Virus record (IMG/VR): IMGVR_UViG_3300037047_000246
DNA from: a virus
Lineage: Duplodnaviria; Caudoviricetes
Length of the DNA: 64,000 bases
Direction: 5' to 3' (one strand)
Numbering within the stretch: position 1 is the first letter of the stretch; the number at the start of each line of letters is the position of its first letter. A program made the translations under genes and the position numbers. The notes beneath the pieces were generated by a model. The model was not told where the DNA came from. It saw only the letters and a program-made list of their open reading frames with translations, and ran no database searches. This document shows positions 1,049-62,732 of the stretch, piece after piece.

Positions 1049-1357
1049 TCAGCTGTCGTGCACTTCGGCGACGTCGATGGTGGTCAAGGCGATGTCCAGA
1101 TGCTGGCGCAGCTGCAGCACTTCGTCCCGGGTCAGGTCGAGGCTGGTGCGGCACCCGGAGTCTGGTCGGTCCAGGGTCAGGCACACGTGCCGGTCAAAAC
1201 GGTCTGGCGGCTCGTTCTCACAAGAGTAAAAGACAACAGACACGCCAACCTGGGCGCCCGTATGCAGCGAAGACTTGAACTGGCAGCAGTACTGGACGCT
1301 GCGGGCAAGCTCCTGGACAGTTTTGGCCGAGCGGCGGCCAGCTAGCAAGCGCTTCAT
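1049..1357 (-). CDS. hypothetical, C-terminal tag (..IDVAEVHDS)
   Basis: ATGA overlap with upstream gene; tag. Confidence 0.7.
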   Translation of the reverse strand: MKRLLAGRRSAKTVQELARSVQYCCQFKSSLHTGAQVGVSVVFYSCENEPPDRFDRHVCLTLDRPDSGCRTSLDLTRDEVLQLRQHLDIALTTIDVAEVHDS

Positions 1358-1638
1358 GAGTTTTGCACTTCCCAGACAGCAAGGTGCTTTTGCACAGTGG
1401 ACACCGCCCGAGCCAGGTTGGCCATCCGAGTCCGGTCGACCCGAGTCTTTGTCCGCTCTGGCTTGCGCTGCAAGCTGGTCAGATAGTCCTGCAGGTGGTC
1501 GAGCTCCCAGCGCCTCTGCATCGCGTCCACGGCGGACGCCACGGGCTCATCCGACACTTTTGTGCGCACTTTCGTGCGCTGCGCAGACGGAACTTGCAGC
1601 CAGGACCGGTTTGGGGCGGCTCGCCAGGAGTCAGGCAT
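1354..1638 (-). CDS. hypothetical, C-terminal tag (..HLAVWEVQNS)
   Basis: coupled operon gene; tag. Confidence 0.7.
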   Translation of the reverse strand: MPDSWRAAPNRSWLQVPSAQRTKVRTKVSDEPVASAVDAMQRRWELDHLQDYLTSLQRKPERTKTRVDRTRMANLARAVSTVQKHLAVWEVQNS

Positions 1639-1870
1639 TGCGCAGCCTGCGGGCCAGCCGGGGGCTCAGCAGAAGCTGCTGCTGGTCGGTCGGACCTATC
1701 TGGACCCGCAGCGCGGCAGCCAGCTGGGCTTCGAAGTCCTGGGCGGCTTTGAATGCGGGGTCGTTTGGACGAGTGGCTTGCAAAGCCGCCTGCACCCAGT
1801 TCAGCACCACTACGGCTTGCGAAGGGTGCATTTCGAACGCAATCTTCTTTCGAAAGGGGACTCTAGGCAT
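1631..1870 (-). CDS. hypothetical protein
   Basis: ORF MPRVPFRKK.. coupled to downstream gene. Confidence 0.6.
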   Translation of the reverse strand: MPRVPFRKKIAFEMHPSQAVVVLNWVQAALQATRPNDPAFKAAQDFEAQLAAALRVQIGPTDQQQLLLSPRLARRLRNA

Positions 1871-1898
1871 TTGGAAACGGCTCCTTTGAATCCCCACC

Positions 1899-2078
1899 TT
1901 ACAGCAGGGAGCTCAAGAGGTTCCCCTGTCCCACTCGACGGCCGGAGCGGTCCCTGGTGACGTCCTGGCTTTTGTCGTACTCTCCCACTTTGCGGCCAGT
2001 CTCGTCGAAGGCCTCGAGTTTGTTGCCCCGGTCTTCGATGCGCCCCACTCGCTTTCCCGACGCGTCTTTGAGCACCAT
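1899..2078 (-). CDS. 59-aa small beta-rich protein (MVLKDASGKRVGRIEDRGNK..GRRVGQGNLLSSLL)
   Basis: manually translated (below ORF-track cutoff); GGAG SD; repeated D-x-x-G-R/K-x-V-G units. Confidence 0.7.
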   Translation of the reverse strand: MVLKDASGKRVGRIEDRGNKLEAFDETGRKVGEYDKSQDVTRDRSGRRVGQGNLLSSLL

Positions 2079-2145
2079 TGCAAATCTCCCTTCAGGATTG
2101 CCTACGGGGAAACTCGTCCCATTTACGGCAAATCCCCTCCGGGGA

Positions 2146-2289
2146 TGTGTTCAAACTGTGGCCTTTGAAGCTTTGGCAAAGCACATATGGCCTTCGAAGC
2201 AGTTCAACCGATCAGGCCGCTGGCCACCCCGAGGGTGTGTTCAAACTGTGGCCTTTGAAGCTTTGGCAAAGCACATATGGCCTTCGAAG
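2146..2289. repeat. two exact 54-bp direct repeats, period 90 bp
   Basis: TGTGTTCAAACTGTGGCCTTTGAAGCTTTGGCAAAGCACATATGGCCTTCGAAG at 2146-2199 and 2236-2289. Confidence 0.95.
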
Positions 2290-3160: not shown

Positions 3161-3189
3161 GACGGCCCTTCCAGCGGGATGTGGCAGGT

Positions 3190-5372: not shown

Positions 5373-5573
5373 TCAACTGTTGTGCACGAGCCACAGCTCG
5401 GCTTCTCGCTCTGTGATTTCCGTATTCGCAAACAGCCAGCGCCCGTCCGGGTGTGGGCAATCGTCTTCTGCGTGCCATTTGCACCAGGCTACAAGCTCCT
5501 GCCCTAGTGTGGCAAACCGGACAGCTGTGCAGCGGCATTTGCGGTCGTCATCGTCCACGTAGTTGCAATTCAT
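5373..5573 (-). CDS. small Cys/His putative Zn-binding protein, tag (..EAELWLVHNS)
   Basis: C..C...CxxH pattern shared with paralogs. Confidence 0.75.
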   Translation of the reverse strand: MNCNYVDDDDRKCRCTAVRFATLGQELVAWCKWHAEDDCPHPDGRWLFANTEITEREAELWLVHNS

Positions 5574-5683
5574 GACTCTTGCACCGCCTCGACCACGGTC
5601 TCTTTGACGAGCTCGGCCAGCTCCTGCTCAAGCTCGTCGGTGTCGGCCCCGGCGGCGTCAGTCAGCTTTGATGCACCAGCCAT
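5570..5683 (-). CDS. 37-aa tag-only micro-ORF
   Basis: MAGASKLTDAAGADTDELEQELAELVKETVVEAVQES*, manual translation. Confidence 0.6.
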   Translation of the reverse strand: MAGASKLTDAAGADTDELEQELAELVKETVVEAVQES

Positions 5684-6360: not shown

Positions 6361-6400
6361 CGGTACGCGCGGCGCGCGGCGCCTTGCGCCGGCGCTCAAG
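6361..6400 (-). promoter_or_regulatory. bipartite promoter-like element
   Basis: TTGAGC-N26-CGTACCG; 39/40 identical to 17775-17814. Confidence 0.7.
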
Positions 6401-6929
6401 CTTCCTGCACCAAGCGAATGAGCTTGACCCGGTCGCGATATAGCCCATCCGGCTCCATCGAGTACTGGACCTGGCAGCAGTCGGCGAGTTTGGCCCAGAA
6501 CCGGAGCTTCTGGATGGTCTTGCCGTTCTTGCCCACGACCCTCCAAGTGATGGAGTCGTAATCATCCCCTTCCTTCAGGCGCCCCTTGTTGAAGGTCCGG
6601 ATGTAGACCCGGTCGCACTCCAAAGCCAGACCGGCCGGCAGGGTCACTTGGGTGCGCTTCAGAACTCCTCCGTAGCGCTGGCCCTCGACTGAGTCGTAGC
6701 AATCCTTCCAGTGATTGCCTGTGGGTTTGAAAACTCCGAGCGCCTTGCCGAACTCGTGGTTGCGACCCTCGAAATACAGCGTGAAGGTCCAAGACTCGGC
6801 CAGCACAATCCGGTCTCCGCAAGCTGGAATGAACAGCTTGGTAGCTTGCTTACGCGCCAGCGGCGTCTTGGACGCAAGTTCGCTCAAGTCCAACGGCCCG
6901 TTCTGTTTTGTCTTCTTGATCTTTGCCAT
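6396..6929 (-). CDS. hypothetical, tag (..KLIRLVQEA)
   Basis: GGAG SD; tag. Confidence 0.8.
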   Translation of the reverse strand: MAKIKKTKQNGPLDLSELASKTPLARKQATKLFIPACGDRIVLAESWTFTLYFEGRNHEFGKALGVFKPTGNHWKDCYDSVEGQRYGGVLKRTQVTLPAGLALECDRVYIRTFNKGRLKEGDDYDSITWRVVGKNGKTIQKLRFWAKLADCCQVQYSMEPDGLYRDRVKLIRLVQEA

Positions 6930-6932
6930 CGG

Positions 6933-17008: not shown

Positions 17009-17779
17009 ATGAACAACCGACTGCGCGCCATTTGCGACAAGTTGCCCTGGACGTTCGAAACGTCTGCCGGACGGGACGAGCGGACGAGAGACATCGTGCT
17101 CGGTCTGGGCGATCTTGCCGCTCTCGGGCGCCGGGCGCAGAAAGCGCTCGACGAGCTCGAGCGCTCAGGCAGCTTCAGGGGCCTAGCCCCCTACCTGAAG
17201 ACCAACGAAGGGCGCATTGACCAGCTGAGGTTGGACGCCGCGTCCATGCCGCCTGCTGCAGAGCTCAGCCCAGCGCAGCTGCGCTGGGTGCGGCGCCTGA
17301 AGCTCGAGTGCGTGCGCATCGAACCGAGTTCGGCTTCCACGAGATGGGTAGCTCAACTGTGCGGAGTAGGCTACGATTGGGAGCCCCGCCGCAGCCGATT
17401 CGCAATTGTGCGGACGCAAGTGCAAGTGGCTGCGGCAGTAATTGCCCCATCGCGCAACCACTGCGATTCGTACGCCATAGGGTCTTTCGGTCCAGATCAT
17501 TTGACTCTGGACATGTCGGACGACAGCGCGCCGGAACTGGACCCTGCAAAGCTCGCTCAATCTGCAGCCGAACGGCTGGTGACCTGCTGCGATCGCGGCT
17601 TTCGCTCGGATATGGCCAATGTGCGGGTAGCCAGGAAGCAGGTGCAAGCGAAGCTTGTCGAATCCGGCAAGTGCCTCGAGTGGACGGAGATGTGCCGGGA
17701 AATGATCGCGAGCGCCAAGCGCGAAGCGATGGCGGGCGAGTATGGACAGCAAGCCGTGAAGCACGTGATGGAGACTTGA
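17009..17779 (+). CDS. hypothetical, tag (..QQAVKHVMET)
   Basis: long ORF; tag. Confidence 0.8.
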   Translation: MNNRLRAICDKLPWTFETSAGRDERTRDIVLGLGDLAALGRRAQKALDELERSGSFRGLAPYLKTNEGRIDQLRLDAASMPPAAELSPAQLRWVRRLKLECVRIEPSSASTRWVAQLCGVGYDWEPRRSRFAIVRTQVQVAAAVIAPSRNHCDSYAIGSFGPDHLTLDMSDDSAPELDPAKLAQSAAERLVTCCDRGFRSDMANVRVARKQVQAKLVESGKCLEWTEMCREMIASAKREAMAGEYGQQAVKHVMET

Positions 17780-17846: not shown

Positions 17847-18188
17847 ATGGCGAGAAAAGGTTCCGAAGGAGAAGCGGTCGGCACTGTGTTGGACGTGATG
17901 GAAATCACCGGCGTGCTTCGCGGCAAGTCGTTCAGCATCACCGGACATCTGGGTTTGCCGCGCGACCAGGTGGTGGCCATCATTGAAAGGGCCGGGGGCA
18001 CGTTCCACAAGACTCCGACATACGGCACGACGTACCTGGTGACGAACCTCGATTGGAACGAGGGGTCCACTGTGGCGTCGGGCACGTCGCGCAAGTTGAT
18101 CAAGGCCCGCGAGATGGGCATCAAGATCTTGTCGGAAAAGCAGCTGCACGACATGATCACGGAGCTGGCCGAAGCGGACAGCAAATGA
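17847..18188 (+). CDS. stand-alone BRCT-domain protein
   Basis: LRGKSFSITG..RD..IERAGG..TTYLV..SRKLIKAREMGIKILSE, like the NAD-ligase C-terminal BRCT. Confidence 0.85.
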   Translation: MARKGSEGEAVGTVLDVMEITGVLRGKSFSITGHLGLPRDQVVAIIERAGGTFHKTPTYGTTYLVTNLDWNEGSTVASGTSRKLIKAREMGIKILSEKQLHDMITELAEADSK

Positions 18189-18376
18189 AGCGCTTCCCCG
18201 GCATGCGGTGCGAATTCAAGTCGTGCCAAAGAGAGGTGGTGCAGTTTTTGCAGACTTGGGCGGACACCCTGGTGTGCAGGTGCGAAGTGCACAGCATACC
18301 TTTCCTAAATATGCGCCGAGACATCAAAGAGATTGACCTGCAGCAAGCTCAAGTGCTAGACGTGCACAGCAAGTGA
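18185..18376 (+). CDS. small Cys/His putative Zn-binding protein, tag (..QAQVLDVHSK)
   Basis: CEFKSC..CRCEVH; ATGA overlap. Confidence 0.75.
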   Translation: MKRFPGMRCEFKSCQREVVQFLQTWADTLVCRCEVHSIPFLNMRRDIKEIDLQQAQVLDVHSK

Positions 18377-26062: not shown

Positions 26063-26674
26063 CTAAACTTTCATGACTCCTTCCACGAAGCACTCGTCCA
26101 CGATGCGGTGCAGGTCTTCCCTTGTCGCGCCCTTGGCGATGGATGCTTTGAGCGGACCCATCAGGTCTGCCATGTGCAGCTCGAGCGGCGAGACCGATGT
26201 CCTGAGCTTGGCCCGCACATTGGCGGCGAGCACGTCGATTTGCGGGTGGTATTCCAGAGTCGGGTCCTCCCGCAAGACCTTTTCGACAGCCTTCATCATT
26301 CGGCAAGCCGCGTCGCTGCTCCAACTGTGCACGGTGTTGCCTTTGTTCGGCCCGTGCTCCAGCACTCGCCCTTTGCCGAACATCTCGGCGCAGTGCTTCG
26401 GCCAGCCGGCATACAGCAGCGACGCCACCAGCAGCGCCTCCAGGCGCGGCCTGGGGTCGTTTGGATGCCGTGGCGCTAGCGAAAGGACGTTCGTCGACAG
26501 CAAAACCCCGTTTCGCTGCGGATATACGTGCACCACGAACGAGCGGCCTCCTGCGCCCTTCATGGTCAGGCAGTCAGCTTCGAGAAAGTCCCAGGCGGCA
26601 GACCCTTCAATCATTTCGCGGACCGCGGCCTCCGCAGCTTTTCGCTGAGCCACTGTCCGCCCAAGTTCGCTCAT
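26063..26674 (-). CDS. hypothetical, extended tag (..GATREDLHRIVDECFVEGVMKV)
   Basis: GGAGGTGA SD; tag. Confidence 0.8.
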   Translation of the reverse strand: MSELGRTVAQRKAAEAAVREMIEGSAAWDFLEADCLTMKGAGGRSFVVHVYPQRNGVLLSTNVLSLAPRHPNDPRPRLEALLVASLLYAGWPKHCAEMFGKGRVLEHGPNKGNTVHSWSSDAACRMMKAVEKVLREDPTLEYHPQIDVLAANVRAKLRTSVSPLELHMADLMGPLKASIAKGATREDLHRIVDECFVEGVMKV

Positions 26675-34678: not shown

Positions 34679-34891
34679 ATGGACGTGAACCGCTGCAACC
34701 ACATTGACTGCGGCGTTCCAGCTGTGCAGTGGATATTCTGCGGCGCTCCAGCTGTGCAGTGGACATTTTTGACCGGAGCTGACGTGCTTTTTTGCCTGTG
34801 CTGCAGCCACACCATGGACAACATGTCCGACAGGTGGAAAAACCTAACTCATGAAGAAGCGCTGGTTTTGTCAGTGCAGGAGGACTTGTGA
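34679..34891 (+). CDS. small Cys/His putative Zn-binding protein, tag (..EALVLSVQEDL)
   Basis: CNHIDCGVPAVQW..CLCCSH. Confidence 0.75.
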   Translation: MDVNRCNHIDCGVPAVQWIFCGAPAVQWTFLTGADVLFCLCCSHTMDNMSDRWKNLTHEEALVLSVQEDL

Positions 34892-35481
34892 TCATCACGC
34901 AGGCCGACATCGACGCCGGGAAAGTCAAAGATGCCATACGCCATATGCCCAGCGTCACCAGAGAGGTGGGAGCAGCCGCGCGCAAGCTGGCCGGGCAAGC
35001 CCAAGTGAGCTCGGACTTGAGAACGTACGGAGGCGCAGTGCACGTCCGTGTCCGCATCAAGCTGGCTGGCTCGAACGAGTATGCGCACTGGTTTGAGGAT
35101 GAGCAAGATCTGCGAGACTGCAAGCACATCGTGTGCATCGTGCTTGGGCTGCACTACAAGATGGGCATTGTGCCAGATGAGTTGTTCGATCCGAATGTGG
35201 ACTGGAAAACAGCAGGAGACGCTCTTGCTGGAGCCATGTACGAGCTTGTGTACGACGTCGCTCAGCCGGATGTGGACCGGCTACACGGCCGGGTGCTTCG
35301 GCTGCTCGACAAGCGATCCAAGACAGTGCCGGAGATGTCGAAGCGAGCCCGCGCCGCCTGGGTCAAGGAGGTGATGGACGACGTCCGCGACAAGCTGCGC
35401 CTGGTGCGAGCCGAGGTGCAGGAGCAGGACGTCGTGGACTTGTGGCGCGAGGTGTTGTGCGAGGAGACTCAAGACAGCTGA
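34888..35481 (+). CDS. hypothetical, extended tag (..DVVDLWREVLCEETQDS)
   Basis: GTGA overlap; tag. Confidence 0.8.
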   Translation: MIITQADIDAGKVKDAIRHMPSVTREVGAAARKLAGQAQVSSDLRTYGGAVHVRVRIKLAGSNEYAHWFEDEQDLRDCKHIVCIVLGLHYKMGIVPDELFDPNVDWKTAGDALAGAMYELVYDVAQPDVDRLHGRVLRLLDKRSKTVPEMSKRARAAWVKEVMDDVRDKLRLVRAEVQEQDVVDLWREVLCEETQDS

Positions 35482-35839: not shown

Positions 35840-36820
35840 ATGAGACTACAGGACCATAACGTTATCAAGGCGATCATGGAAGCCATCACCCAGCCCGAGA
35901 TGGACTCCGCCCACATTGAGCGCGACCTGCCGCTCCGGGACGGGCTGCCGGTCACCCGCATCGACGGTGTGCCGTGCGCGATGGACGTCGTCAACGGGGT
36001 GATCCAGGCCGGAGAGGGCCGCGAGCAGCAGTGGTTCGAGGTGCATCTGCGCGACGTGACCCCCAAGCGCTTCCGCTCGCCCGAGGAGCAAACGAAGCTC
36101 GAGCAGGAGCACGAAGACTGGTGGCATGTGTCGTCGAGCCAGCGCTCCGTGTTTGTGCGCAACCGCTCCCGCTCCGGGGCCGTGGAGGACTTTCTGCGCA
36201 GGTTCCCCGGCGAGGCAGCCTCCGGTCTGGACATGCCCGATGCAGAGCTCGCCCGCGGGTTCGAATTCATCGACGACGAGGGGGACCGAATCCGCGCAGA
36301 GTTCATCGCTAAAGAGGTCATGGAGACCGAGGCCGAGGCCGCTCCCGACCCCCAGTATCCGCAGCCAGGTCAGAACTCTGCGAGCTCGCAAGGAGTTGGC
36401 GGTTGCCCGGCCGGCCAGTGCTCCTGCGGCGGGTGCTACCCGGAGCCGTCCGAGGACGAGGAGCAGGACGAACAGGACGACGATATCAACGCGGTCGATC
36501 CGAACGACCCCTACCAGAATCTGAAGCCCGAGGAGTGCTATTTTGGGGTAGCCGGCGAGTCGTGCGGCGGAGACCCGGACAGCAAATGGCTGATGGTGTG
36601 CCCCAAGGACTATTGGGACAAGAACCATCGCGCCTACGACGGCTACCTGGGCAACATCTGGAAGCACTTCCCCAGCTACATGCAGGCGCCTGAGGACATG
36701 GAGTGCACCTGGGCCATCCCGGACGACAAGGGCACCGAAGACGTCGCGATCGACATGACAGTGGCGGGGTTTGAGCGCAACCTGGAGCTGGAAAGTCTGA
36801 TCGAAGCAGAGGAGCCGTGA
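35840..36820 (+). CDS. acidic two-domain hypothetical protein
   Basis: GAGGAGGTGA SD; D/E-rich linker. Confidence 0.85.
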   Translation: MRLQDHNVIKAIMEAITQPEMDSAHIERDLPLRDGLPVTRIDGVPCAMDVVNGVIQAGEGREQQWFEVHLRDVTPKRFRSPEEQTKLEQEHEDWWHVSSSQRSVFVRNRSRSGAVEDFLRRFPGEAASGLDMPDAELARGFEFIDDEGDRIRAEFIAKEVMETEAEAAPDPQYPQPGQNSASSQGVGGCPAGQCSCGGCYPEPSEDEEQDEQDDDINAVDPNDPYQNLKPEECYFGVAGESCGGDPDSKWLMVCPKDYWDKNHRAYDGYLGNIWKHFPSYMQAPEDMECTWAIPDDKGTEDVAIDMTVAGFERNLELESLIEAEEP

Positions 36821-37443
36821 AAGCGCAGTTCGAAGCAGCAGAGGTGAAGGCGCGATTCGAGGCCTATTTGGCACCCATTGGCCTTTACCTGTACTGGACG
36901 TCTTTGACACTTCAGAACCAGAAAGACTTGGTTCGGTCCATAGTTGGCTGCGTGCAAGAACAAGAAGCCGCTCTGCGGAGCGCTAAAATTCAGGCCTACT
37001 GCGTGGCCTCAGGTCACACAGTTTCGATCCGCTTGAAGTGCCGTACAGGCACCAGACGGCTCCAAAAGGTCGTGCCTCGGAAGGGAGCTCCGACAGTCTC
37101 AGAGGTGGTGCTGGCATGCACGCCCCATTTCAAAGTAGTCCCGAACGGCGAAGCGTACGCGGCCCTGCACGCCGCTGCCCGCTGGTTTTCTGTGCTCGAG
37201 CTGGAATCGGCTCTGGGCGATGAGCTGCGAATCAAGATCGACGAGGCGCTGGCTGCACTGCCGACAGCGCAGAAGGCAAAGGCGCTGCAGCAAGCCGAGG
37301 CCAATCGGCACAACACCAGGTTGCGCCAACGGCAGGCGGCTTTGGAGCGGCTGGCGGAGACGATGCGCACCTGGGAGTACGGCGAGTCGGACGTGATGGA
37401 GGCTTGGCGCATGTCTCAAGTGGAAAGGGTGCAGCAGTCATGA
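36817..37443 (+). CDS. hypothetical, extended tag (..DVMEAWRMSQVERVQQS)
   Basis: GTGA overlap; tag. Confidence 0.8.
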   Translation: MKAQFEAAEVKARFEAYLAPIGLYLYWTSLTLQNQKDLVRSIVGCVQEQEAALRSAKIQAYCVASGHTVSIRLKCRTGTRRLQKVVPRKGAPTVSEVVLACTPHFKVVPNGEAYAALHAAARWFSVLELESALGDELRIKIDEALAALPTAQKAKALQQAEANRHNTRLRQRQAALERLAETMRTWEYGESDVMEAWRMSQVERVQQS

Positions 37444-52171: not shown

Positions 52172-54208
52172 ATGAAACTTCATGCTCTGCTTGTGTGCCT
52201 GTCGGCAATCGTTGCCTGCGGAGGGCCGCCTGAAACTGCTGCGGAGAGCCTCGCTGGCGCCTCCGGCGAGTCGGGAGCTTCCGGCGCGGCCGGCGCGCCT
52301 GTCTCCGCTGGCGCTGCCGGCGAATCCAGCTTCGCCGGATCCGCTGGCGCCTCCGGCGAAGCTGGATCGTCGGGCGCAACTGGCGCATCTGGAGCTGCCG
52401 GAGAATCTGGCGCATCTGGAGCTGCCGGAGAATCTGGCGCATCTGGCGCATCGGGCGCGGCCGGAGAATCTGGGTCATCTGGCGCCGCTGGGGCGCCTGC
52501 TGGAGGCGCAGCCGGCGCTGGAGGAGCGGCGACCGAGTGCGCGCCGGGAGCCAAAAACTGCGTGGGGCTGACGCTGCTCGAATGCAACCCGATGGGCTTT
52601 TGGATCCAAAAGCAGCAGTGCCAATATGTCTGCCAATCCGGCAGCTGCGCAGGAGAATGCGTGCCCGGCGCCAGCCAATGTGCCGGGCTTGTGCCGCAGC
52701 ACTGCGACCAATCTGCCGCTTGGCAGCCGTCTCCCGCCTGCCCCTTTGTGTGCCAAAGCGGCGCCTGCGCCGGCGTCTGCGTCCCGGGAGCCCAAGAGTG
52801 CGCAGGCGCTGCGCCTCGCACATGCTCTGCGGCCGGCCAATGGCAGGTAGCCGCGGACTGCCCCTTTGTGTGCCAAAGCGGCGCCTGCGCCGGCGTCTGC
52901 GCTCCAGGCGACTCCAGGTGCTTCGGCGCAGACGTCCAGTCCTGCCATTCGGACGGGCAGTGGCACGTCGAGCAGACTTGCCAGTTCGTCTGCGTCGGCG
53001 GCGCGTGCGCCGGCGCCTGCGTCCCCGGGCAGATGCGATGCTCCGGATCGGCGCTGCAGCAGTGCTCCGCACTCGGCCAGTGGGTCGACGCTGTCGTTTG
53101 CCCGTACGCGTGCCACGAGCTGTCGTGCGCTGGCGTCTGCGTCCCTGGCCAGAAGCAGTGCTCCGGCGCAACTGTCCAGCAGTGCAGCCTGGCCGGGCAG
53201 TGGGCGGACCTGCAAGCCTGCCCGTCCGGCCCCGGCGCCGAGGCCGCGTGCTCGGAAGGCGCCTGCTCGCTTGCGTGCCTGGCTGGCCGGGGCGACTGCA
53301 ACGGCGACATCTCTGACGGCTGCGAGGCCAGCTTGACTGCAAACGACCCCGCCAACTGCGGCGCGTGTGGCCGCGCGTGCGCCAGCGCTGCAGTGTGCAT
53401 CATCGGCAGGTGCGCTCAAACGCTGGCCGTGGAGAGCAGCTCTGTGCTGGACATCAAGATCGATGCGGCGTTCGTCTATTATTCGGTGGAAGGCAAAGTC
53501 ATGAAAGTCGCCAAGAGCGGCGGCACCCCCGTTGCGCTGGCTGCAGGCACGACGGTGACAAATCTGGCTGTCAACAGCTCGCACGTGTTCTGGGTGGACG
53601 GCGGCAACTACGTGCGCAGGGTGAGCAAGAGCGGCGGCGCAACAGACGTGTTGTCCAGCGCAGCCAACATGGCTCAGCAGGTGGTGGCGGACTCGTCTTA
53701 CGTCTACTTTTCCAGCTACGGCTTGATCGCAATCCGCAAAATCCCTGTCGGCGGTGGCGCCGCGACGACGGTGTGCGCGGGGTCCCCGAAGCGCATGGCC
53801 TTGGACTCGGTGCAGGGCGCCGTGCTGTGGACCAATTTCGACTCCGTTCGCGGATGCTCGACGTCAGCGCCGCACTCGTGGGTGGTGGCGTCAGGGCAAA
53901 ACGGCCCGTCAGGCATAGCGATCGACAAAGCGTCAGCCGCCTACTGGACCAACGCGGGCCCTGGCCTGAAGGCCGTGATGGGTCCTGGCGCGGTCGCGAT
54001 TGCTGTCGATGCCGCCTTTGGGCCGATCGCGGTCGACGACAGCCGCGCGTATTGGTACAACTATGTCGAAAGCAAGATCAAGCGCGTATCCAAATATGGC
54101 GGCGCGGTGGAAACTGTGGCATCGTCCGTTGTGGCAAGTGCGATTGCTGTCGACGACGAGTCTGTCTACCACGCGGCGCACAACATCTTGGCAAAGACAG
54201 ACAAATGA
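52172..54208 (+). CDS. myxobacterial-type Cys-rich surface lipoprotein with C-terminal beta-propeller
   Basis: signal peptide with IVA-C16 lipobox, G/A/S/E linker, six ~40-aa 6-Cys repeats, DCNGDISDGCE..NCGACG, propeller repeats (IAVDD..VYW). Confidence 0.88.
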   Translation: MKLHALLVCLSAIVACGGPPETAAESLAGASGESGASGAAGAPVSAGAAGESSFAGSAGASGEAGSSGATGASGAAGESGASGAAGESGASGASGAAGESGSSGAAGAPAGGAAGAGGAATECAPGAKNCVGLTLLECNPMGFWIQKQQCQYVCQSGSCAGECVPGASQCAGLVPQHCDQSAAWQPSPACPFVCQSGACAGVCVPGAQECAGAAPRTCSAAGQWQVAADCPFVCQSGACAGVCAPGDSRCFGADVQSCHSDGQWHVEQTCQFVCVGGACAGACVPGQMRCSGSALQQCSALGQWVDAVVCPYACHELSCAGVCVPGQKQCSGATVQQCSLAGQWADLQACPSGPGAEAACSEGACSLACLAGRGDCNGDISDGCEASLTANDPANCGACGRACASAAVCIIGRCAQTLAVESSSVLDIKIDAAFVYYSVEGKVMKVAKSGGTPVALAAGTTVTNLAVNSSHVFWVDGGNYVRRVSKSGGATDVLSSAANMAQQVVADSSYVYFSSYGLIAIRKIPVGGGAATTVCAGSPKRMALDSVQGAVLWTNFDSVRGCSTSAPHSWVVASGQNGPSGIAIDKASAAYWTNAGPGLKAVMGPGAVAIAVDAAFGPIAVDDSRAYWYNYVESKIKRVSKYGGAVETVASSVVASAIAVDDESVYHAAHNILAKTDK

Positions 54209-54502: not shown

Positions 54503-54655
54503 TCAGCTCTCCATTATCTTCGCGACCAGCCATTCGACCGATATCTCTGCAACCCGCCCGCCTCTGGCGATCTCCGCGAAAATCTCGCCGAAGTGCCGGA
54601 CAAAGCGCGGCGCTGCCTTTTCTGGAACTGGAGGCGCGCGCGCAGCGCTTCCCAT
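54503..54655 (-). pseudogene. 3' remnant of paralog of 49975-50490, tag (..EWLVAKIMES)
   Basis: IFAEIARGGRVAEISVEWLVAKIMES*. Confidence 0.7.
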
Positions 54656-57446: not shown

Positions 57447-57779
57447 ATGAAGCACAAAGGCCGCCACTGGGGCCGCAGCTGGGAAGCGACCGAGGACGTG
57501 TCAGAGCAGCTCGTCGATGGCCGCGTGCGTACTGCGCTTGAGTGCGCGTTCGCGTCAGCTTGCATGGACGTCGAGGCAGGCTCCGAAGAGCTCGCCTCTG
57601 CCAAGGTGAGAAAAACTCCAAACGGAATGTGGAAAGTTTCAGCAACCTGCTGCGGAAAGCTGGCGCACCGAGTGACGTCAAGGTGCGCTTCGTGCGGCGC
57701 AGACGTCATGCCCGGAGGTTCTGATCACCCAATGAACGGGTGCATCGAAGTGGCCGTGCAAGAGGTCATGGAGATCTGA
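57447..57779 (+). CDS. Cys-rich hypothetical, tag (..EVAVQEVMEI)
   Basis: CASC; tag. Confidence 0.7.
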   Translation: MKHKGRHWGRSWEATEDVSEQLVDGRVRTALECAFASACMDVEAGSEELASAKVRKTPNGMWKVSATCCGKLAHRVTSRCASCGADVMPGGSDHPMNGCIEVAVQEVMEI

Positions 57780-59427: not shown

Positions 59428-60542
59428 TCATGAGGGCTGAGGCATCGCAAAAGGCCTGTACGTGCGCTTGCCCACCAGCTGGTACATCAGCTCATCGAAC
59501 TCTCTGTGCAGCTCCCAGGCATCGTCTGGCCGCGCGTGGGGCGCGTCGAGCGCGCATCCCCTCAAGAAGGATTGCAGCTTCTTGGGCACGGCGTCCGGCA
59601 TCCTTAGAGTCGCCGGATCTCCACCCAGCAACATAACCATCGTCTTGGCCACCATAAAGATGTCTGTGCGCGGCGTCGGCGCGCCTTTGCTCAGCACCTC
59701 TGGCGCGTAGCATGCACGCCAAGCGCGGCTGGCGAACGGAATGCGCGCGCCGTCTTGCGCGGCCGACGTCCAGTCCAACAGGATCGCCCCGTGGTTGATC
59801 GGGTGCACCATGACGTGCGGCGGAATCACGGCGCCGTGCACGACTCCGGCGCCGTGCACCAGGTGCAGCGCTGACAGCAGGCGCTTGAACATCCAAGCGG
59901 CGTCTTTGCAGTCGATGCCCTTGGGGAAGGCGTGCAGCACGCGCTCGAGCGGAATGTGCTCGTCGTAGCAGGCGAAGATGTTGACTCGTCTGCTGGCGCC
60001 TTTGGCGTCGCGCATGCTGAAGTCGTCGACCAGCTCCGGCAGAAGCTTGAGCAGCTTCTCGGCTCGGGCTGACGTCTTCTTGAAGACGTGGCGCAGGGTC
60101 TTGGCTTCATTCTCTATCAAGTCGTTGTCGCCCGCGTTGCGAGCGACTTTGAACACCGCCTTGCGGTCTTGCGCGCCGTCCGCCCAGGTGCAGTCGTACA
60201 CGTCCGCGATATCTCCCGAGCACCGCAAGGCGCCGACCACGTACTTGCGGCGCTTGACTTGCACCACGACGGGACTGGCCTTCGGAGCAGGAGCCGCGGC
60301 GGCCTTGTCGCCATAAGTGCCGGCTCTTACTTTGGCCTCGGCTGCAGCGTTTATGGCTGTGAGCTTGGTGAACGCTGCAGTCGCTTGCGACTTGTCGGCA
60401 TGATGGTCGGGGTGAACGACTTGCACGAGCTGCCGATATAGCGCCTTCAGATCATGCAGCTGTTTGGCCTGGTCGCCGCTCAGCGCGCCGAACACATCTT
60501 CAGGGGCGCCGCCAGAATGCTCTGCAACACCTTGTCTGCCAT
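59428..60542 (-). CDS. J-domain-like + protein-kinase-fold protein (probable pseudokinase), 5' frameshift near 60507
   Basis: HPD motif; VFKVAR; catalytic loop HGAVIPPH; LLDW; APEV; RTDIFM. Confidence 0.75.
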
Positions 60543-60596
60543 TGGTTCACCCGCGCCACATTACACCCCGCCAGGCGTAATTTTCGGGCTGGGTGA

Positions 60597-61244
60597 TCAC
60601 AACTGACGAAGGTATTCGCTCACTCGACGTCGGCACAGTTCTGCCGCCGCGTCATCAAACGCGGTCCTCGCACCTTTCGACGCGTTGCATGTCTGGTGGG
60701 CGATGCGCGCATTCTCGGGGCAGTGAGTGCCGCCAAACTTCAATGGTACAACATGGTCGATAGTTGGCCTGAGCTTGATGTCAGGGCAGTCCGCTATCGT
60801 GTCGATGCCGCAAATGTGACAAGCACACCCTCGCCCACGGATCAGGTCACCGATGGTGAAGGCTTCAAGCTGTTCCATCTTGCGTTTGGCTCTGCGCTGC
60901 GCAATTTGGGCCCTCTTCTTCCCGGGGTTGGCCTTGTAGAAGGCCGACACTCTGGCGCGCTCTTTGATCCTGTCCTCCTCCGAGCGATTGGCTCGGGCAG
61001 CCGATATAACTTCTTGGCTGCGTTCGTACCGCGAGTGATTTGCGCGCTTGCACTCGGCCTGATGTTCCATCCTATACTTGCGTGTCCTGGACTTCACCTT
61101 TTCTTTGTTGGCCACATACCTTCGCGAAGTTCTTCCCCTGGTGCAGTATACGCACTCCGCCATCCGGCGGATTTTGCCGCATGTCTTCCGGGTGTAGAAC
61201 TCGCCTGGCTCACGCGGAAGCCCGCAGATCGAACAATTAATCAT
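60597..61244 (-). CDS. HNH endonuclease with N-terminal Zn finger
   Basis: CSICG..CVYC; CHICG..TIDHVVP..GG.H..N..AH..CN. Confidence 0.88.
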   Translation of the reverse strand: MINCSICGLPREPGEFYTRKTCGKIRRMAECVYCTRGRTSRRYVANKEKVKSRTRKYRMEHQAECKRANHSRYERSQEVISAARANRSEEDRIKERARVSAFYKANPGKKRAQIAQRRAKRKMEQLEAFTIGDLIRGRGCACHICGIDTIADCPDIKLRPTIDHVVPLKFGGTHCPENARIAHQTCNASKGARTAFDDAAAELCRRRVSEYLRQL

Positions 61245-61281
61245 ATGAGCAAAGAACCACAAAAAGCCAAGGAGGTCCAGC

Positions 61282-62181
61282 ATGCGGAGCAAACCAACTG
61301 TGACGGCGGCCAGCAAAGGCAAAATCGTAGTCCACAGCGGGTTTCAAGGATATGATGTATACATCAACTCGTATGTCGGATGTGAGTTCGGGTGCTCGTA
61401 CTGCTACGTCAGGTGGTTCCTGAAGGATGCGCGCCCCTGGGGGCAGTTCGTGCGCCCCAGGATGCACCTGCCCAAGCGGCTAGCCAAGGAGTTGGCGCTG
61501 GTGGCGGGCAAGCGCGTGGTCATGGGGACGATGACAGATCCTTACCAGCCGCTCGAGCGCCAAATGCGGCTGACCCGCCAGGCGCTGCAACTGATGGCGA
61601 ACGCCCCGGTACCGCCAAGCAAAGTCGGCATCTTCACCCGCTCGCCGATCATGCTCGATGACCTGGCTCTGATTGCATCGCTACCCAAGGCTCGCGTGCA
61701 CATGACAGTGCCGCCGCTGCCGCGCGACGCCCAAGTGCTGATGGAGCCCATTCCAGTGCTGGCTCGGGCGCGCTGGGACGCGGTGGCCAAGCTCAAGGCA
61801 GCTGGAATTCGGGTGCACGTCAACATCGCGCCGTCTATCCCGATACTGTCCGACGGGTTGGTGGAGGCCAACGCGCGAATGCTGGCGGCGCTGGGAGTGG
61901 ACGAGTTCTTCGTCGACTCGATGCAAGCGTACTCAGACAGCTTCGCCTGCACCGCCGCGGTGATGGCGGGGCACCCGGACTGGCCGGCCATAACCAAGAT
62001 CATCCAGGACAAGGCGGCGTACGCCGTCTGGAAGAAGAAGCACCGGGACGACTGGATGTCGGCCTGGAAGCAAGTGGGCCAGCCCGGCGCACTGCCCATC
62101 TGGTGCGATCACGAGACGCGAGTCTGGGAAGACATGAGGACTGGCTTGGCGCTGGACCCTGCGACCTACGACGCGGCTTGA
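61282..62181 (+). CDS. radical SAM protein, SplB/spore-photoproduct-lyase-like
   Basis: YVGCEFGCSYCYV; TDPYQPLE; FTRSP. Confidence 0.85.
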   Translation: MRSKPTVTAASKGKIVVHSGFQGYDVYINSYVGCEFGCSYCYVRWFLKDARPWGQFVRPRMHLPKRLAKELALVAGKRVVMGTMTDPYQPLERQMRLTRQALQLMANAPVPPSKVGIFTRSPIMLDDLALIASLPKARVHMTVPPLPRDAQVLMEPIPVLARARWDAVAKLKAAGIRVHVNIAPSIPILSDGLVEANARMLAALGVDEFFVDSMQAYSDSFACTAAVMAGHPDWPAITKIIQDKAAYAVWKKKHRDDWMSAWKQVGQPGALPIWCDHETRVWEDMRTGLALDPATYDAA

Positions 62182-62183
62182 CG

Positions 62184-62732
62184 ATGGCGAACTGGGATCG
62201 CATCTACGCCTCGCTACAAGCTGCCGTAGTGGCTGCCGAGGGGTGTCTGACCGACGCGCCTTCCAGAGCGCACGGCACGAAAGCGGACTGGCACATTCGC
62301 ACGCTGCAGCGCGGAGAGATGCCCTGGTGCGCCACCATGAGATCGGATGGCCTGCTAGTGCAAGCTGGCCATAATGCAGCATTCTCCATTCGGCTGACAA
62401 ACCGCGAGCCTGAAAGCCTGCGCCGGCTTGTGGGATTCCTGTGTATGCTGAGCACCATGCACACGATCGGGGGCAGGGAGCAACTTCATGTTAATGTCGA
62501 GCATGAGGCCAAGCGACTGTCGCGCTTCATCAGATGTGATATGGGTCCGCGTGCGGCCTCATTCTATAGCGAAGTGATGGAATATTGGCGCGATCCTCTA
62601 GATATCCGACGCGCCAAAGTCGAGCAAGTTATGCGACATATTTTAGCCGAATGTCTTGATGTCGGGATGACCATGCAGGACGTCGCCAAGATGTGGGACG
62701 AAATGCAGGTGCAGAAAGTCCACGACGAGTGA
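62184..62732 (+). CDS. hypothetical, extended tag (..GMTMQDVAKMWDEMQVQKVHDE)
   Basis: tag. Confidence 0.75.
   Translation: MANWDRIYASLQAAVVAAEGCLTDAPSRAHGTKADWHIRTLQRGEMPWCATMRSDGLLVQAGHNAAFSIRLTNREPESLRRLVGFLCMLSTMHTIGGREQLHVNVEHEAKRLSRFIRCDMGPRAASFYSEVMEYWRDPLDIRRAKVEQVMRHILAECLDVGMTMQDVAKMWDEMQVQKVHDE

What the first reader, a model, noticed from the sequence alone, without database searches (positions are those of the whole stretch)
1049..62732. A shared C-terminal peptide tag on ~48 unrelated proteins: candidate undescribed protein-targeting system
Seen: about 48 ORFs or remnants on both strands (manual count), with no other common sequence, end in E(-10)-x-x-[VILC](-7)-x-x-[VTI](-4)-[QHM](-3)-[EDQN](-2)-[SAV..](-1)-stop. 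Examples: EVQVELVHES (4411), EAELWLVHNS (5373), EAICEGVHQS (5867), EFYCRKVMDL (15885), EVLVEAVQDV (22727), ECFVEGVMKV (26063), EWFVRRVQED (33985), EVFVKQVMQS (40864), EWLVWETMES (49975), EVAVQEVMEI (57779), EMQVQKVHDE (62732). Codons vary (GTG/GTC/GTT/ACG; CAA/CAG/CAC/CAT/ATG; TGA/TAA/TAG). The tag also ends genes with no coupled downstream ORF (2558, 19515, 49975, 62732). Together these point to selection on the peptide, with i/i+3 helical spacing and a free C-terminus. The ligase, MoxR, vWA proteins, radical SAM, kinase, BRCT, lipoproteins and all endonucleases lack it. Inference: a common docking signal that routes a cargo class to one partner, e.g. virion loading/ejection, import into a phage compartment, a protease/PDZ adaptor, or a host hub protein. 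Known analogies are the T4 internal-protein capsid-targeting sequence, ssrA-type degrons and C-terminal secretion signals. I know no description of this particular motif.
Basis: partly seen in the sequence, partly recalled or inferred. Interest (0 to 1): 0.95.

Follow-up and report, generated by a model that had tools for sequence, protein, structure and literature searches.

The report
Shared C-terminal address tag, huge phage
About a third of the genes in this window, and a sixth of this 362-kb phage's genes, encode small, otherwise unrelated orphan proteins that end in the same short helix (V-x-x-V-[M/Q/H]-[E/D]-S-stop); the tag is conserved across a whole clade of huge phages, looks like an undescribed address label, and its reader is still unknown.

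Summary
With my own gene calls, 40 of 131 window genes (plus 2 uncalled ORFs) and 78 of 478 genes in the 362-kb phage end in E(-10)..V(-7)..V(-4)-[M/Q/H]-[E/D]-S-COOH. Only 51 of 103,039 internal positions score as well (P about 1e-167).

Four related huge phages with 40-50% GC carry the tag (mostly [VI]MES-COOH) on 10-26% of their genes. A sister clade with the same GC as this phage (59%) has none.

Selection acts on the peptide:
- All synonymous codons are used, including both serine codon families.
- The tag does not depend on a coupled downstream gene.

The tagged proteins:
- They are small (median 91 aa), have no Pfam or PHROG match, and are mostly genome-specific.
- After the tails are removed, 432 tagged proteins form 311 clusters.
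- AlphaFold2 puts the tag at the end of a C-terminal helix in two unrelated folds.
- The tag differs between genomes but is uniform across families within a genome (VHDL-COOH in one relative). This points to one co-evolving reader.

Reader candidates:
- Best candidate, weakly supported: a phage class-A DnaJ found only in the tagged clade.
- Rejected: MoxR/vWA, release factor, BMC shells, T4-type protease.
- Capsid conservation is uninformative.

No description turned up in the literature. This scan has noted different tags of the same kind on other phage DNA.

The parts
62184..62732 (+). tagged gene, 182 aa, tail VQKVHDE
   Evidence: 24.0 bits; no Pfam/PHROG hit (36, 108)
57447..57779 (+). tagged gene, 110 aa, tail VQEVMEI
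   Evidence: 21.8 bits
55432..56103 (+). tagged gene, 223 aa, DUF4116, tail IRSVQDS
   Evidence: 15.0 bits; Pfam
54503..54655 (-). tagged gene, 50 aa, tail VAKIMES
   Evidence: 16.1 bits
49975..50490 (-). tagged gene, 171 aa, tail VWETMES
   Evidence: 21.1 bits
45039..45311 (+). tagged gene, 90 aa, tail VLLVHEV
   Evidence: 17.8 bits
43320..43505 (+). tagged gene, 61 aa, tail LKAVQDV
   Evidence: 12.5 bits
40421..40864 (+). tagged gene, 147 aa, tail VKQVMQS
   Evidence: 22.5 bits
37440..37859 (+). tagged gene, 139 aa, all-helical family in 5 genomes, tail IKKVQEA
   Evidence: 14.4 bits; alignment; model (tag = end of helix 120-138)
36817..37443 (+). tagged gene, 208 aa, tail VERVQQS
   Evidence: 17.9 bits
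35496..35717 (+). tagged gene, 73 aa, Zn-ribbon family 2, tail VRRVQEG
   Evidence: 13.4 bits; family
34888..35481 (+). tagged gene, 197 aa, tail CEETQDS
   Evidence: 19.5 bits
34437..34676 (+). tagged gene, 79 aa, Zn-ribbon family 2, tail VLSVQES
   Evidence: 18.4 bits
33955..34440 (+). tagged gene, 161 aa, tail VKQVMSA
   Evidence: 16.6 bits
33599..33985 (+). tagged gene, 128 aa, tail VRRVQED
   Evidence: 19.3 bits
30778..30990 (+). tagged gene, 70 aa, Zn-ribbon family 1, tail LRDVHLS
   Evidence: 12.4 bits; family
26063..26674 (-). tagged gene, 203 aa, tail VEGVMKV
   Evidence: 16.8 bits
22727..23119 (-). tagged gene, 130 aa, tail VEAVQDV
   Evidence: 20.1 bits
22289..22465 (-). tagged gene, 58 aa, tail VQMVQDS
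   Evidence: 19.4 bits
21570..21779 (-). tagged gene, 69 aa, tail VEAVQDE
   Evidence: 19.9 bits
19477..19515 (+). tail and stop of a tagged ORF that my gene caller missed, tail VQNTHES
   Evidence: 15.1 bits
18387..19133 (+). tagged gene, 248 aa, the only tagged gene conserved in all four relatives, tail VVRVMEA
   Evidence: 15.1 bits; core list
18185..18376 (+). tagged gene, 63 aa, Zn-ribbon family 2, tail VLDVHSK
   Evidence: 11.7 bits
17009..17779 (+). tagged gene, 256 aa, tail VKHVMET
   Evidence: 14.4 bits
16341..16877 (-). tagged gene, 178 aa, tail IMEVHEI
   Evidence: 13.2 bits
15885..16313 (-). tagged gene, 142 aa, tail CRKVMDL
   Evidence: 16.5 bits
14125..14163 (-). tail and stop of a short tagged ORF that my gene caller missed, tail VKSIQES
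   Evidence: 12.5 bits
12928..13164 (-). tagged gene, 78 aa, tail VGGVMKS
   Evidence: 11.7 bits
12145..12282 (-). tagged gene, 45 aa, tail CWLVHQV
   Evidence: 16.8 bits
7583..8158 (-). tagged gene, 191 aa, tail VADVQIS
   Evidence: 17.2 bits
7367..7561 (-). tagged gene, 64 aa, tail VAQVHGA
   Evidence: 15.6 bits
7183..7374 (-). tagged gene, 63 aa, tail VAEVHDA
   Evidence: 18.5 bits
6396..6929 (-). tagged gene, 177 aa, tail IRLVQEA
   Evidence: 11.4 bits
5867..6448 (-). tagged gene, 193 aa, tail CEGVHQS
   Evidence: 17.7 bits
5662..5856 (-). tagged gene, 64 aa, Zn-ribbon family 2, tail VWLVHQS; the protein that was modelled and docked
   Evidence: 22.4 bits; model (tag = helix 53-63, pLDDT 92-96); complex
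5570..5683 (-). tagged gene, 37 aa, tail VEAVQES
   Evidence: 19.2 bits
5373..5573 (-). tagged gene, 66 aa, Zn-ribbon family 2, tail LWLVHNS
   Evidence: 18.7 bits
4941..5363 (-). tagged gene, 140 aa, tail VEIIHNE
   Evidence: 15.3 bits
4411..4875 (-). tagged gene, 154 aa, tail VELVHES
   Evidence: 23.6 bits
2558..3160 (-). tagged gene, 200 aa, DUF4116, tail TKQVQDS
   Evidence: 15.6 bits; Pfam
1354..1638 (-). tagged gene, 94 aa, tail VWEVQNS
   Evidence: 19.5 bits
1049..1357 (-). tagged gene, 102 aa, tail VAEVHDS
   Evidence: 17.2 bits

Best explanation
The motif is a real C-terminal address tag. It is an 11-residue amphipathic helix, often opened by an S/T/C/D residue and E-E, that ends exactly at the free carboxyl end as [VI]-x-x-[VI]-[M/Q/H]-[E/D]-S. 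It is attached to the small, fast-evolving orphan proteins encoded in the genome arms of one clade of huge phages. Inferred mechanism: one common partner, which co-evolves with the tag, grips the hydrophobic face (-8, -7, -4, -3) together with the acidic end and the terminal carboxylate, and so handles 40 to 180 unlike proteins per genome as one class. My leading candidate for that partner is the phage's own class-A DnaJ (J domain with HPD, zinc finger, client-binding C-terminal domains; genome 58631-59530, outside the window). It would pass tagged proteins to host Hsp70 for folding, holding or hand-over. Shown: the tag, its peptide-level selection, its strict terminal position, its helical state in models, its restriction to one clade and one class of proteins, and its genome-wise variation. 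Inferred: that a single reader exists (about 0.6).
For: Enrichment: 78/478 C-termini against 51/103,039 internal positions. Relatives: 111/638, 75/565, 138/670 and 30/391 with this phage's matrix, or 10-26% with each genome's own matrix. Peptide-level selection: every synonymous codon occurs at the conserved V, E and S positions, including both AGY and TCN for Ser. The tag holds from 40% to 66% GC. 192 tagged genes have no downstream start within 50 nt or face a convergent gene (14.7% tagged, against 18.3% of coupled genes). Strictly terminal: in G003, 113 hits lie at the end and 0 of 5,880 positions within 10 residues of it. Cargo class: median length 91 aa and only 4 of 432 over 300 aa. 65 of 78 have no homologue in four relatives and only 1 is core. 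20 tested window proteins gave one real Pfam family (DUF4116, on two of them) and 10 gave no PHROG. Bodies form 311 clusters from 432 proteins. 25% of arm genes are tagged against 5% of core-region genes. Helix: AlphaFold2 puts the tag in helix 53-63 of a 64-aa Zn-ribbon protein and at the end of helix 120-138 of a 139-aa all-helical protein, with pLDDT above 90. One reader: the tail is the best-kept part of divergent families. Tag status is stable between homologues (only 4 of 625 untagged-to-tagged pairs). The tag varies by genome and not by family: M at -3 in 88-96% of G001/G003 tags, a mix of M, Q and H in this phage, H in G004, and V-x-x-V-H-D-L in G012, where members of Zn-ribbon family 1 carry that variant. 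The sister clade (capsid protein 75% identical) has no tag and no members of the two large tagged families. DnaJ: DnaJ_C is present in all 8 tag-bearing records in which it could be expected and absent from the complete and the 87%-complete tag-less genomes. Full DnaJ is rare in phages, 15 of 50,697 records. C-terminal domain I of class-B J-proteins is known to bind the extreme C-terminal EEVD of Hsp70 and to need the free carboxylate (PMC8913300). Complex prediction of DnaJ with the 64-aa tagged protein gave weak support: ipSAE 0.44 (runs 0.00, 0.44, 0.45), best control 0.00. The mark was reached by 58 of 80 solved complexes and 2 of 110 mismatched pairs, but a score of 0.60 or under by only 7 of those 80 and by both mismatches that passed. 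The runs agree in at least 4% of contacts, and the partner's pLDDT is at least 66. My own alignments were used, so these counts hold only roughly. Solved J-protein-peptide complexes exist, so the pass may come from memory.
Against: No reader has been shown to bind. The DnaJ link rests on a single clade split that 38 other core genes share, so the co-occurrence amounts to one evolutionary event. The complex score lies in the range where a pass is more often wrong than right, and no interface was returned. DnaJ is among the faster-evolving core proteins (25-40% identity) while the tag core is stable, and its divergence does not track the tag variants. Known C-terminal domain I ligands bind extended, whereas the tag is modelled as a well-packed helix; a packed helix could equally be part of each fold. 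The known class-A DnaJ preference (from my own knowledge) is for hydrophobic or aromatic peptides without acidic residues. Other huge phages with DnaJ lack this particular motif.
Confidence: 0.6

Rival explanations
1. Capsid cargo signal. The tag docks the small proteins onto the inner face of the HK97-fold capsid, the scaffold or the portal, so they are packed and injected with the DNA as ready-made effectors. This would resemble encapsulin cargo-loading peptides, the P22 scaffold C-terminus or the T4 capsid-targeting sequence.
For: The signal is short, C-terminal and helical, and sits on many small proteins. A capsid of this size offers thousands of identical sites (inference). The major capsid protein is 89-94% identical across relatives whose median core identity is 43-55%.
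Against: The capsid protein is just as frozen in the tag-less sister clade (92% between G007 and G008, with neighbouring genes at 45-62%), so its conservation says nothing about the tag. The putative scaffold ends differently (LESLWDRP-like) and its one tag-like internal stretch is not conserved. Tagged genes lie in the accessory arms and not with the head genes. No T4- or HK97-type prohead protease was detected. Packing 40 to 180 different proteins would be without precedent.
Confidence: 0.12
2. Degron. The tag marks accessory (probably early) proteins for timed destruction by a host or phage AAA+ protease that recognises the free C-terminus, as ClpX recognises ssrA.
For: Strict dependence on the very end of the chain. 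The carriers are one class of small accessory proteins. C-terminal degrons read with the carboxylate are an established kind (my own knowledge).
Against: The tail is acidic and polar at the end, unlike the non-polar ssrA or Tsp signals (my own knowledge). The only phage-encoded AAA+/peptidase pair near the tags (MoxR and DUF2201 vWA-metallopeptidase) is missing from G003, the most tag-rich genome. A host protease common to hosts of 40-66% GC phages would not explain the genome-specific variants or the complete absence from the sister clade.
Confidence: 0.12
3. No external reader. The helix is an intrinsic module, such as a folding cap or an oligomerisation or mixing helix by which tagged proteins pair with themselves or each other. 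It would be kept because new genes in this clade are built onto, or recombine at, a common 3' end.
For: Both AlphaFold2 models place the tag in a confident, apparently packed terminal helix. In the Zn-ribbon families the last metal ligand sits right before the helix. The hydrophobic pattern -8, -7, -4, -3 is what a packed or coiled helix needs.
Against: Unrelated folds (Zn-ribbon, all-helical, DUF4116 repeats) would not need the same polar residues E(-10), E/D(-2), S(-1), nor an end exactly one residue after the acid. The concerted genome-wide switch to VHDL in G012 within a family that ends VMES elsewhere fits a shared partner better than many separate folds, although mutual pairing between tags would also evolve in concert. 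The DNA of the tails is not conserved, so recent cassette exchange is excluded.
Confidence: 0.12
4. Nucleic-acid or translation artefact. The codons serve as the ribosome-binding site or start overlap of the next gene, or the nascent peptide tunes termination.
For: TCA-TGA (an ATGA start-stop overlap) and TGA stops are over-used in tagged genes, and GTG-ATG resembles the 3' part of the GGAGGTGA ribosome-binding site.
Against: The tag is almost as frequent when no gene follows (14.7% against 18.3%). Third codon positions vary freely and Ser uses both codon families. M is replaced by Q or H, which destroys the GTGATG string. The motif persists from 40% to 66% GC and is absent from a GC-matched sister phage. 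The phage release-factor gene is present only in G000 and G001 and not in tag-rich G002 and G003. The tag has none of the W/P/R features of known arrest peptides (my own knowledge).
Confidence: 0.03

Closest known systems
Hsp70/Hsp90 C-terminal EEVD motif, read by TPR carboxylate clamps and by C-terminal domain I of class-B J-domain proteins
   Same: A short motif at the extreme C-terminus that mixes hydrophobic and acidic residues. The free carboxylate is required (PMC8913300). A J-protein with client-binding C-terminal domains is encoded by every tag-bearing complete genome.
   Different: The sequence and register differ (V-x-x-V-M-E-S against I-E-E-V-D). The tag sits on hundreds of different clients rather than on the chaperone itself. 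The phage protein is class A. The tag is modelled as a helix, whereas EEVD binds extended. Binding has only weak in-silico support.
Peroxisomal PTS1 (SKL-COOH) and similar C-terminal sorting signals
   Same: A few residues at the very end plus upstream context. One receptor serves many unrelated cargo proteins, and the signal is not tolerated away from the end.
   Different: That is a eukaryotic organelle import system. No compartment or TPR receptor is known or was found for this phage.
Encapsulin cargo-loading peptides, and the T4 capsid-targeting sequence of internal proteins
   Same: Short terminal peptides that address unrelated cargo to the inside of an HK97-fold shell.
   Different: The T4 signal is N-terminal, is cut by gp21, and sits on a handful of proteins. 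Encapsulin peptides have another consensus and their cargo genes lie next to the shell gene. Here the carriers number 40-180 per genome, lie far from the head genes, and no T4-type protease was found.
Bacterial microcompartment encapsulation peptides, e.g. EutC residues 1-19 (MDQKQIEEIVRSVMAS..., PMC3299773)
   Same: An amphipathic helix with the pattern E-E-I-V-x-x-V-M-x-S, almost the same as E-E-A-I-V-x-x-V-M-E-S.
   Different: Encapsulation peptides work at either end behind a linker and need BMC shell proteins. The phages encode no PF00936 or PF03319 protein, and the tag is strictly terminal.
Effector translocation signals shared by large, fast-evolving effector sets (Legionella Dot/Icm C-terminal E-block signal; oomycete RxLR)
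   Same: Scores of unrelated, rapidly changing orphan proteins marked by one short signal. The Dot/Icm signal is C-terminal, rich in Glu near -10, and has a hydrophobic residue near -3/-4 (my own knowledge).
   Different: Those signals are loose and serve secretion machines of cells. This tag is far sharper, viral, and has no known translocon.
Other shared terminal tags on phage orphan proteins noted in this scan and in LR756502.1
   Same: The same kind of pattern: many unrelated small proteins of a large phage share one terminal peptide that is uniform within a genome and specific to a clade.
   Different: The sequences differ (for example R-[DN]-x-K-L-x-x-[LI]-G-I-COOH, or N-terminal MKHLK.Y). 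In some cases the partner is a radical-SAM enzyme. None has a proven reader.

Membership tests
C-terminal docking or sorting signal read by one partner (generic kind) | Enriched at the exact C-terminus of unrelated proteins, far above internal frequency | tested here: met
   78/478 against 51/103,039; 311 body clusters among 432 tagged proteins; strictly terminal
C-terminal docking or sorting signal read by one partner (generic kind) | Selection on the peptide and not on the DNA | tested here: met
   All synonymous codons and both Ser codon families are used; the tag is independent of GC and of gene coupling
C-terminal docking or sorting signal read by one partner (generic kind) | A defined receptor that binds the signal | tested here: inconclusive
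   Only weak in-silico support for DnaJ (0.44 against best control 0.00). The genome-wise concerted tag variants argue that a reader exists
   Class-A DnaJ with HPD, zinc finger and DnaJ_C in all tag-bearing complete genomes and absent from the tag-less ones. TPR proteins were not searched
EEVD-type motif and J-protein/TPR reader | Motif sequence E-E-V-D at the end, bound in extended form | tested here: not met
   The consensus is V-M-E-S, V-Q-E-S or V-H-D-L, and it is modelled as a helix
BMC encapsulation peptide | BMC-H or BMC-P shell proteins present | tested here: not met
   PF00936 and PF03319 are absent from five genomes
BMC encapsulation peptide | Amphipathic helix of 15-20 residues at a protein end | tested here: met
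   Helix of 11 or more residues with hydrophobic -8, -7, -4, -3; resembles EutC 1-19
T4 capsid-targeting sequence | N-terminal position and removal by a gp21-type (S77) protease at L/I-x-E | tested here: not met
   The tag is C-terminal. There is no PF03420 hit above cut-off and no PF04586 hit
Encapsulin-type cargo-loading peptide | Cargo gene next to the shell gene, and peptide binding to the shell lumen | tested here: not met
   Tagged genes lie in the arms, and only 5% of core-region genes are tagged. Binding is not testable here. Capsid conservation is the same in the tag-less clade
ssrA-like C-terminal degron | Non-polar last residues read by ClpX/ClpA/Tsp, and tag-dependent turnover | not testable with these tools
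   The tail ends E-S (polar), so by sequence it is unlike LAA. Turnover cannot be measured in silico
MoxR AAA+/vWA partner docking | The MoxR and vWA pair co-occurs with the tag | tested here: not met
   The pair is present in G000, G001, G002 and G004 but absent from G003, which has the most tags
Shine-Dalgarno or start-stop overlap constraint | The motif occurs only where a downstream start is coupled, and the conservation is at DNA level | tested here: not met
   14.7% of uncoupled genes are tagged against 18.3% of coupled ones; third codon positions are free

The most novel reading that the evidence does not exclude
The tag is the address of an unknown protein-sorting pathway of huge phages, with a dedicated reader that is not a known chaperone, protease or shell. 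It would move a sixth to a quarter of the viral proteome, the fast-evolving orphan arsenal, to one destination, for example into the capsid for co-injection or to a phage-built site in the cell. Different clades would use different terminal codes: VMES-COOH here, R..KL..LGI-COOH and MKHLK.Y- in a 642-kb phage. Terminal 'postcodes' would then be a general organising principle of very large phage genomes.
Probability: 0.25. Interest if true: 0.95.

Novelty: new variant of a known kind. Interest (0 to 1): 0.86.

Why it matters
Most genes of huge phages are orphans with no clue to their function. A tag that marks hundreds of them as one class gives the first handle on this dark matter. It defines a testable set of proteins, predicts a single partner that a peptide pull-down could fish out, and offers a way to sort unknown genes in metagenomes by sequence alone. 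A portable 11-14-residue tag would also be a useful tool.

Tried and rejected
1. GC or codon-use artefact: rejected. A sister phage with the same GC (59%) has no signal at any C-terminal position, and relatives with 40-50% GC have the tag.
2. Ribosome-binding-site or ATGA overlap: rejected.
3. One diverged gene family: rejected as a full explanation. BLAST gives 73 clusters from 78 bodies, and iterative HMM search gives 311 from 432, with only two sizeable Zn-ribbon families.
4. BMC compartment: no shell genes.
5. T4- or HK97-type prohead protease site: no such protease was detected.
6. Scaffold protein sharing the tag: its tag-like stretch is not conserved.
7. Capsid protein as reader, argued from its extreme conservation: uninformative, because it is equally conserved in the tag-less clade.
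8. MoxR/vWA-metallopeptidase as reader: absent from G003.
9. Phage release factor: present only in G000 and G001.
10. Phage Hsp70: none is encoded.
11. Timing of expression: sigma-70-like promoters and terminators are no more frequent than in shuffled sequence, and k-mer analysis gave only the ribosome-binding site. No conclusion on early or late expression.
12. Function of the cargo: Pfam and PHROGs, the ESM Atlas and Foldseek of two confident models against the PDB gave nothing.
13. N-terminal use of the tag: only a 2-5-fold excess over mid-protein positions in four of five genomes, from a handful of cases.
14. The same VMES motif in other DnaJ-encoding huge phages and in the nearest GenBank relative: not enriched.
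15. Literature: searches on huge and jumbo phages and C-terminal motifs, and on Biggiephage, found no description.
16. The short profile search through the genome search undercounted tags badly, so it was replaced by whole-genome gene calls.

Full report
**What the window is.** The 64-kb window is the minus strand of bases 265348-329347 of a 362,524-bp virus record with direct terminal repeats and about 60% GC. The record encodes a phage DNA polymerase, a DnaB-like helicase, exonuclease V, a portal protein and a 295-aa HK97-type major head protein. No cultured relative turned up in GenBank phages; the nearest hit is a 485-kb uncultured phage with 35% identity in the polymerase. IMG/VR holds 481 contigs with a related capsid protein, including complete genomes of 393-448 kb. 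No gene finder was available, so I wrote a codon-usage caller. It gave 478 genes covering 90% of the genome. I applied it unchanged to all the relatives.

- The quoted tails are in the sequence.
- With no preselection, the C-terminal positions of all 478 proteins are enriched for E at -10, V at -7 and -4, M/H/Q at -3, E at -2 and S at -1. The information content is 3-6 times sampling noise.
- A 12-residue matrix gives a bimodal score distribution. 78 C-termini score above 7 bits, most of them above 12. Only 51 of 103,039 internal positions do (P about 1e-167), and 10 of 6,407 uncalled ORF ends, most of which look like genes I missed.
- In the window, 40 of 131 called genes carry the tag, plus two uncalled ORFs.

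**Peptide or DNA?**
- At the conserved V, E and S positions every synonymous codon is used. Ser uses both AGY and TCN, which differ at all three bases.
- There is a secondary DNA signal: TCA-TGA (an ATGA start-stop overlap) is over-used. But the tag is nearly as frequent on genes with no start within 50 nt downstream, or facing a convergent gene (14.7%), as on tightly coupled genes (18.3%).
- The decisive controls are other genomes. Relatives G001 and G002 (50% GC), G003 (40%) and G004 (46%) carry the tag on 19%, 15%, 26% and 10% of their genes, mostly as [VI]-M-E-S-COOH.
- The complete 448-kb sister phage G008, with 59% GC like this phage, has 0 of 653, and its C-terminal positions are at noise level.
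- The DNA pattern for [VI]MES-stop occurs 72, 53 and 35 times in G001, G003 and G002. It never occurs in the five sister-clade records. The reversed control pattern gives 0-1.

**What carries the tag.**
- Tagged proteins are small: median 91 aa, and 4 of 432 exceed 300 aa.
- They lie in the two accessory arms: 25% of arm genes against 5% of genes in the 36-259 kb core block.
- They are orphans. 65 of 78 have no homologue in four relatives, against 192 of 400 untagged genes, and only one is core.
- One of 78 has a match in the sister phage, against 102 of 400 untagged.
- Twenty window proteins gave one real Pfam family (DUF4116, on two of them), and ten gave no PHROG.
- With the last 14 residues removed, iterative HMM searches group 432 tagged proteins from five genomes into 311 clusters. 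Only two are sizeable, both small Zn-ribbon proteins, with 49 and 20 members.
- Where homologues exist, tag status is kept, and the tail is the best-conserved stretch of families whose bodies share 16-23% identity.

**Shape.**
- The extended consensus is a hydrophobic residue, then S/T/C/D, x, E/D, E, two hydrophobic residues, V, x, x, V, M, E, S. That reads as an N-cap followed by three helical turns, with -8, -7, -4 and -3 on one face.
- AlphaFold2 models of two unrelated tagged families, a 64-aa Zn-ribbon protein and a 139-aa all-helical protein, put the tag in a C-terminal helix with pLDDT above 90. Neither fold matches the PDB.
- The motif sits exactly at the end. In G003 there are 113 terminal hits and none at the 5,880 positions within ten residues of the end. 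This suggests that the carboxylate, or steric closure at the chain end, is part of what is recognised.

**Why I infer one reader.** The tag changes by genome and not by protein family.
- M at -3 makes up 88-96% of tags in G001 and G003. This phage has a mix of M, Q and H, and G004 mostly has H.
- G012 (66% GC) has V-x-x-V-H-D-L-COOH.
- Members of Zn-ribbon family 1 end VMES in G001-G003 and VHDL in G012.
- Concerted change across unrelated proteins within a genome is what a shared, co-evolving partner predicts. Many separate folding constraints would not predict it.
- The presence-or-absence split between sister clades also points to a clade-specific factor.

- Thirty-nine genes are core to the tag-bearing genomes and undetectable in G008. 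Many are nucleotide-metabolism genes (PurZ-like synthetase, ThyX, a dNMP kinase, an HD nucleotidase) or sigma factors.
- One is a full class-A DnaJ, with an HPD J domain, a CxxCxGxG zinc finger and both client-binding C-terminal domains.
- DnaJ_C is found in all eight tag-bearing records large enough to be expected to hold it. It is absent from the complete and the 87%-complete tag-less genomes. No phage Hsp70 is encoded, so the partner would be host DnaK.
- Full DnaJ is rare in phages: 15 of 50,697 records, several of them evidently host DNA.
- J-protein C-terminal domain I is a known reader of an extreme C-terminal acidic-hydrophobic motif that needs the free carboxylate (PMC8913300).
- The single complex prediction allowed, DnaJ with the 64-aa tagged protein, returned weak support. 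ipSAE was 0.44 (runs 0.00, 0.44, 0.45), and the best control was 0.00. The mark was reached by 58 of 80 solved complexes and 2 of 110 mismatched pairs, but scores of 0.60 or under by only 7 of those 80 and by both passing mismatches. The runs agree in at least 4% of contacts, and the partner's pLDDT is at least 66. I used my own alignments, so these counts hold only roughly. Similar solved complexes exist, so the pass may come from memory.
- Against DnaJ: the phyletic link is a single event shared with 38 other genes. DnaJ evolves fast (25-40% identity) and its divergence does not track the tag variants. The tag is modelled as a packed helix, not an extended peptide.
- I put DnaJ at about 0.25 and the existence of a single reader at about 0.6.

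**Candidates removed.**
- The MoxR AAA+ and DUF2201 metallopeptidase-vWA pair in the window is absent from G003.
- The phage release factor is present only in G000 and G001.
- No BMC shell proteins, although the tag closely resembles the EutC encapsulation peptide.
- No T4- or HK97-type prohead protease.
- The scaffold-like protein has another C-terminus.
- The capsid protein's 89-94% identity, against a 43-55% median for core genes, is matched in the tag-less clade (92%). It is therefore not evidence either way.

**Comparison with what is known.** In how it works, the tag resembles C-terminal docking signals that one receptor reads on many cargoes: PTS1, EEVD, encapsulin cargo peptides, ssrA, and the Dot/Icm effector signal. 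It meets the generic definition except for a demonstrated receptor. It fails a defining feature of each specific family I could test (see the membership table). I found no description of it in papers on huge or jumbo phages.

This scan has recorded the same tag from neighbouring windows of this genome. It has also recorded different terminal tags of the same kind on other phage DNA. I found two more in the 642-kb phage LR756502.1. The pattern therefore looks general in very large phages, with clade-specific codes.

**Verdict.** I classify it as a new variant of a known kind (terminal docking or sorting signals). There is a real chance that it marks a sorting pathway not yet described.

Noticed in passing
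L227-L258 (LR756502.1, 642-kb uncultured phage, 31.5% GC): This phage has two other shared terminal tags on otherwise different proteins. A C-terminal R-[DN]-x-K-L-x-x-[LI]-G-[IL]-COOH is on 43 of 973 proteins. An N-terminal M-[KR]-H-[LI]-K-x-Y motif is on 65 of 973. No protein carries both. This phage also encodes a full DnaJ.
   Followed up: partly
genome 183928-184815 (L010:3931-4815, minus strand); G007/G008 loci L176, L180: The 295-aa major head protein is 89-94% identical among phages whose median core-protein identity is 43-55%. It is 92% identical within the tag-less sister clade, where neighbouring genes are 45-62% identical. This is an unusually frozen capsid protein.
   Followed up: partly
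genome 138201-139223 (L007:18204-19223, minus strand): A core gene encodes an actin-like protein of the Volactin family (PF25216, E 2e-71). It is 61-68% identical in the relatives and 47% in the sister clade, so this is a conserved phage cytoskeletal protein.
   Followed up: no
window 59428-60495 (-): A 355-aa protein with an N-terminal J domain fused to a protein-kinase domain. It has no homologue in the four relatives. A third J-domain ORF lies at genome 50404-50517.
   Followed up: no
window 28659-29765 (-) and 23535-25115 (-): A MoxR-like AAA+ ATPase and a DUF2201 metallopeptidase with a vWA-like domain. This is the pair described for group 2.2 jumbo phages (PMC7824862). It is present in G000, G001, G002 and G004 and absent from G003 and G008.
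   Followed up: yes
G012 (L210-L223), e.g. 237844-238116, 238113-238553, 75458-75715: A relative with 66% GC uses a variant tag, V-x-x-V-H-D-L-COOH, including on members of the Zn-ribbon family that ends VMES in other genomes.
   Followed up: yes
window 34679-34891 (+) beside 34437-34676 (+); window 43549-43866 (+): Apparent tag decay. One paralogue ends VLSVQEDL, one residue longer than its neighbour's VLSVQES. Another protein has a tag-like IMKS followed by six basic residues.
   Followed up: no
G001 33018-33374, G002 350787-351140, G004 74350-74676; window about 42100-42462 (+) and 41242-41619 (+): A conserved family carries a tag-like VVEVMEV stretch 12-20 residues from the N-terminus, and several proteins of this phage have AEVHEE-type stretches near their N-terminus. 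The excess over mid-protein positions is only 2-5-fold in four of the five genomes.
   Followed up: partly
just downstream of window genes 17009-17779 (+) and 6396-6929 (-): Nearly the same GC-rich 30-nt sequence (GCGCCGGCGCAAGGCGCCG.GCGCCGCGCG) follows the stop of two unrelated tagged genes. It may be a repeated hairpin or terminator. An upstream motif CGCGTACC recurs 8 times in the accessory arms.
   Followed up: no
genome 249167-250366, 253204-254529, 257970-258926, 46220-46855: A PurZ-like adenylosuccinate-synthetase homologue, ThyX, a dNMP kinase and an HD 5'-deoxynucleotidase are core to the tag-bearing clade and undetectable in the sister clade. This fits a clade-specific DNA base modification.
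   Followed up: no
window 52172-54208 (+): A 678-aa core protein with collagen triple-helix repeats near its N-terminus, probably a fibre.
   Followed up: no
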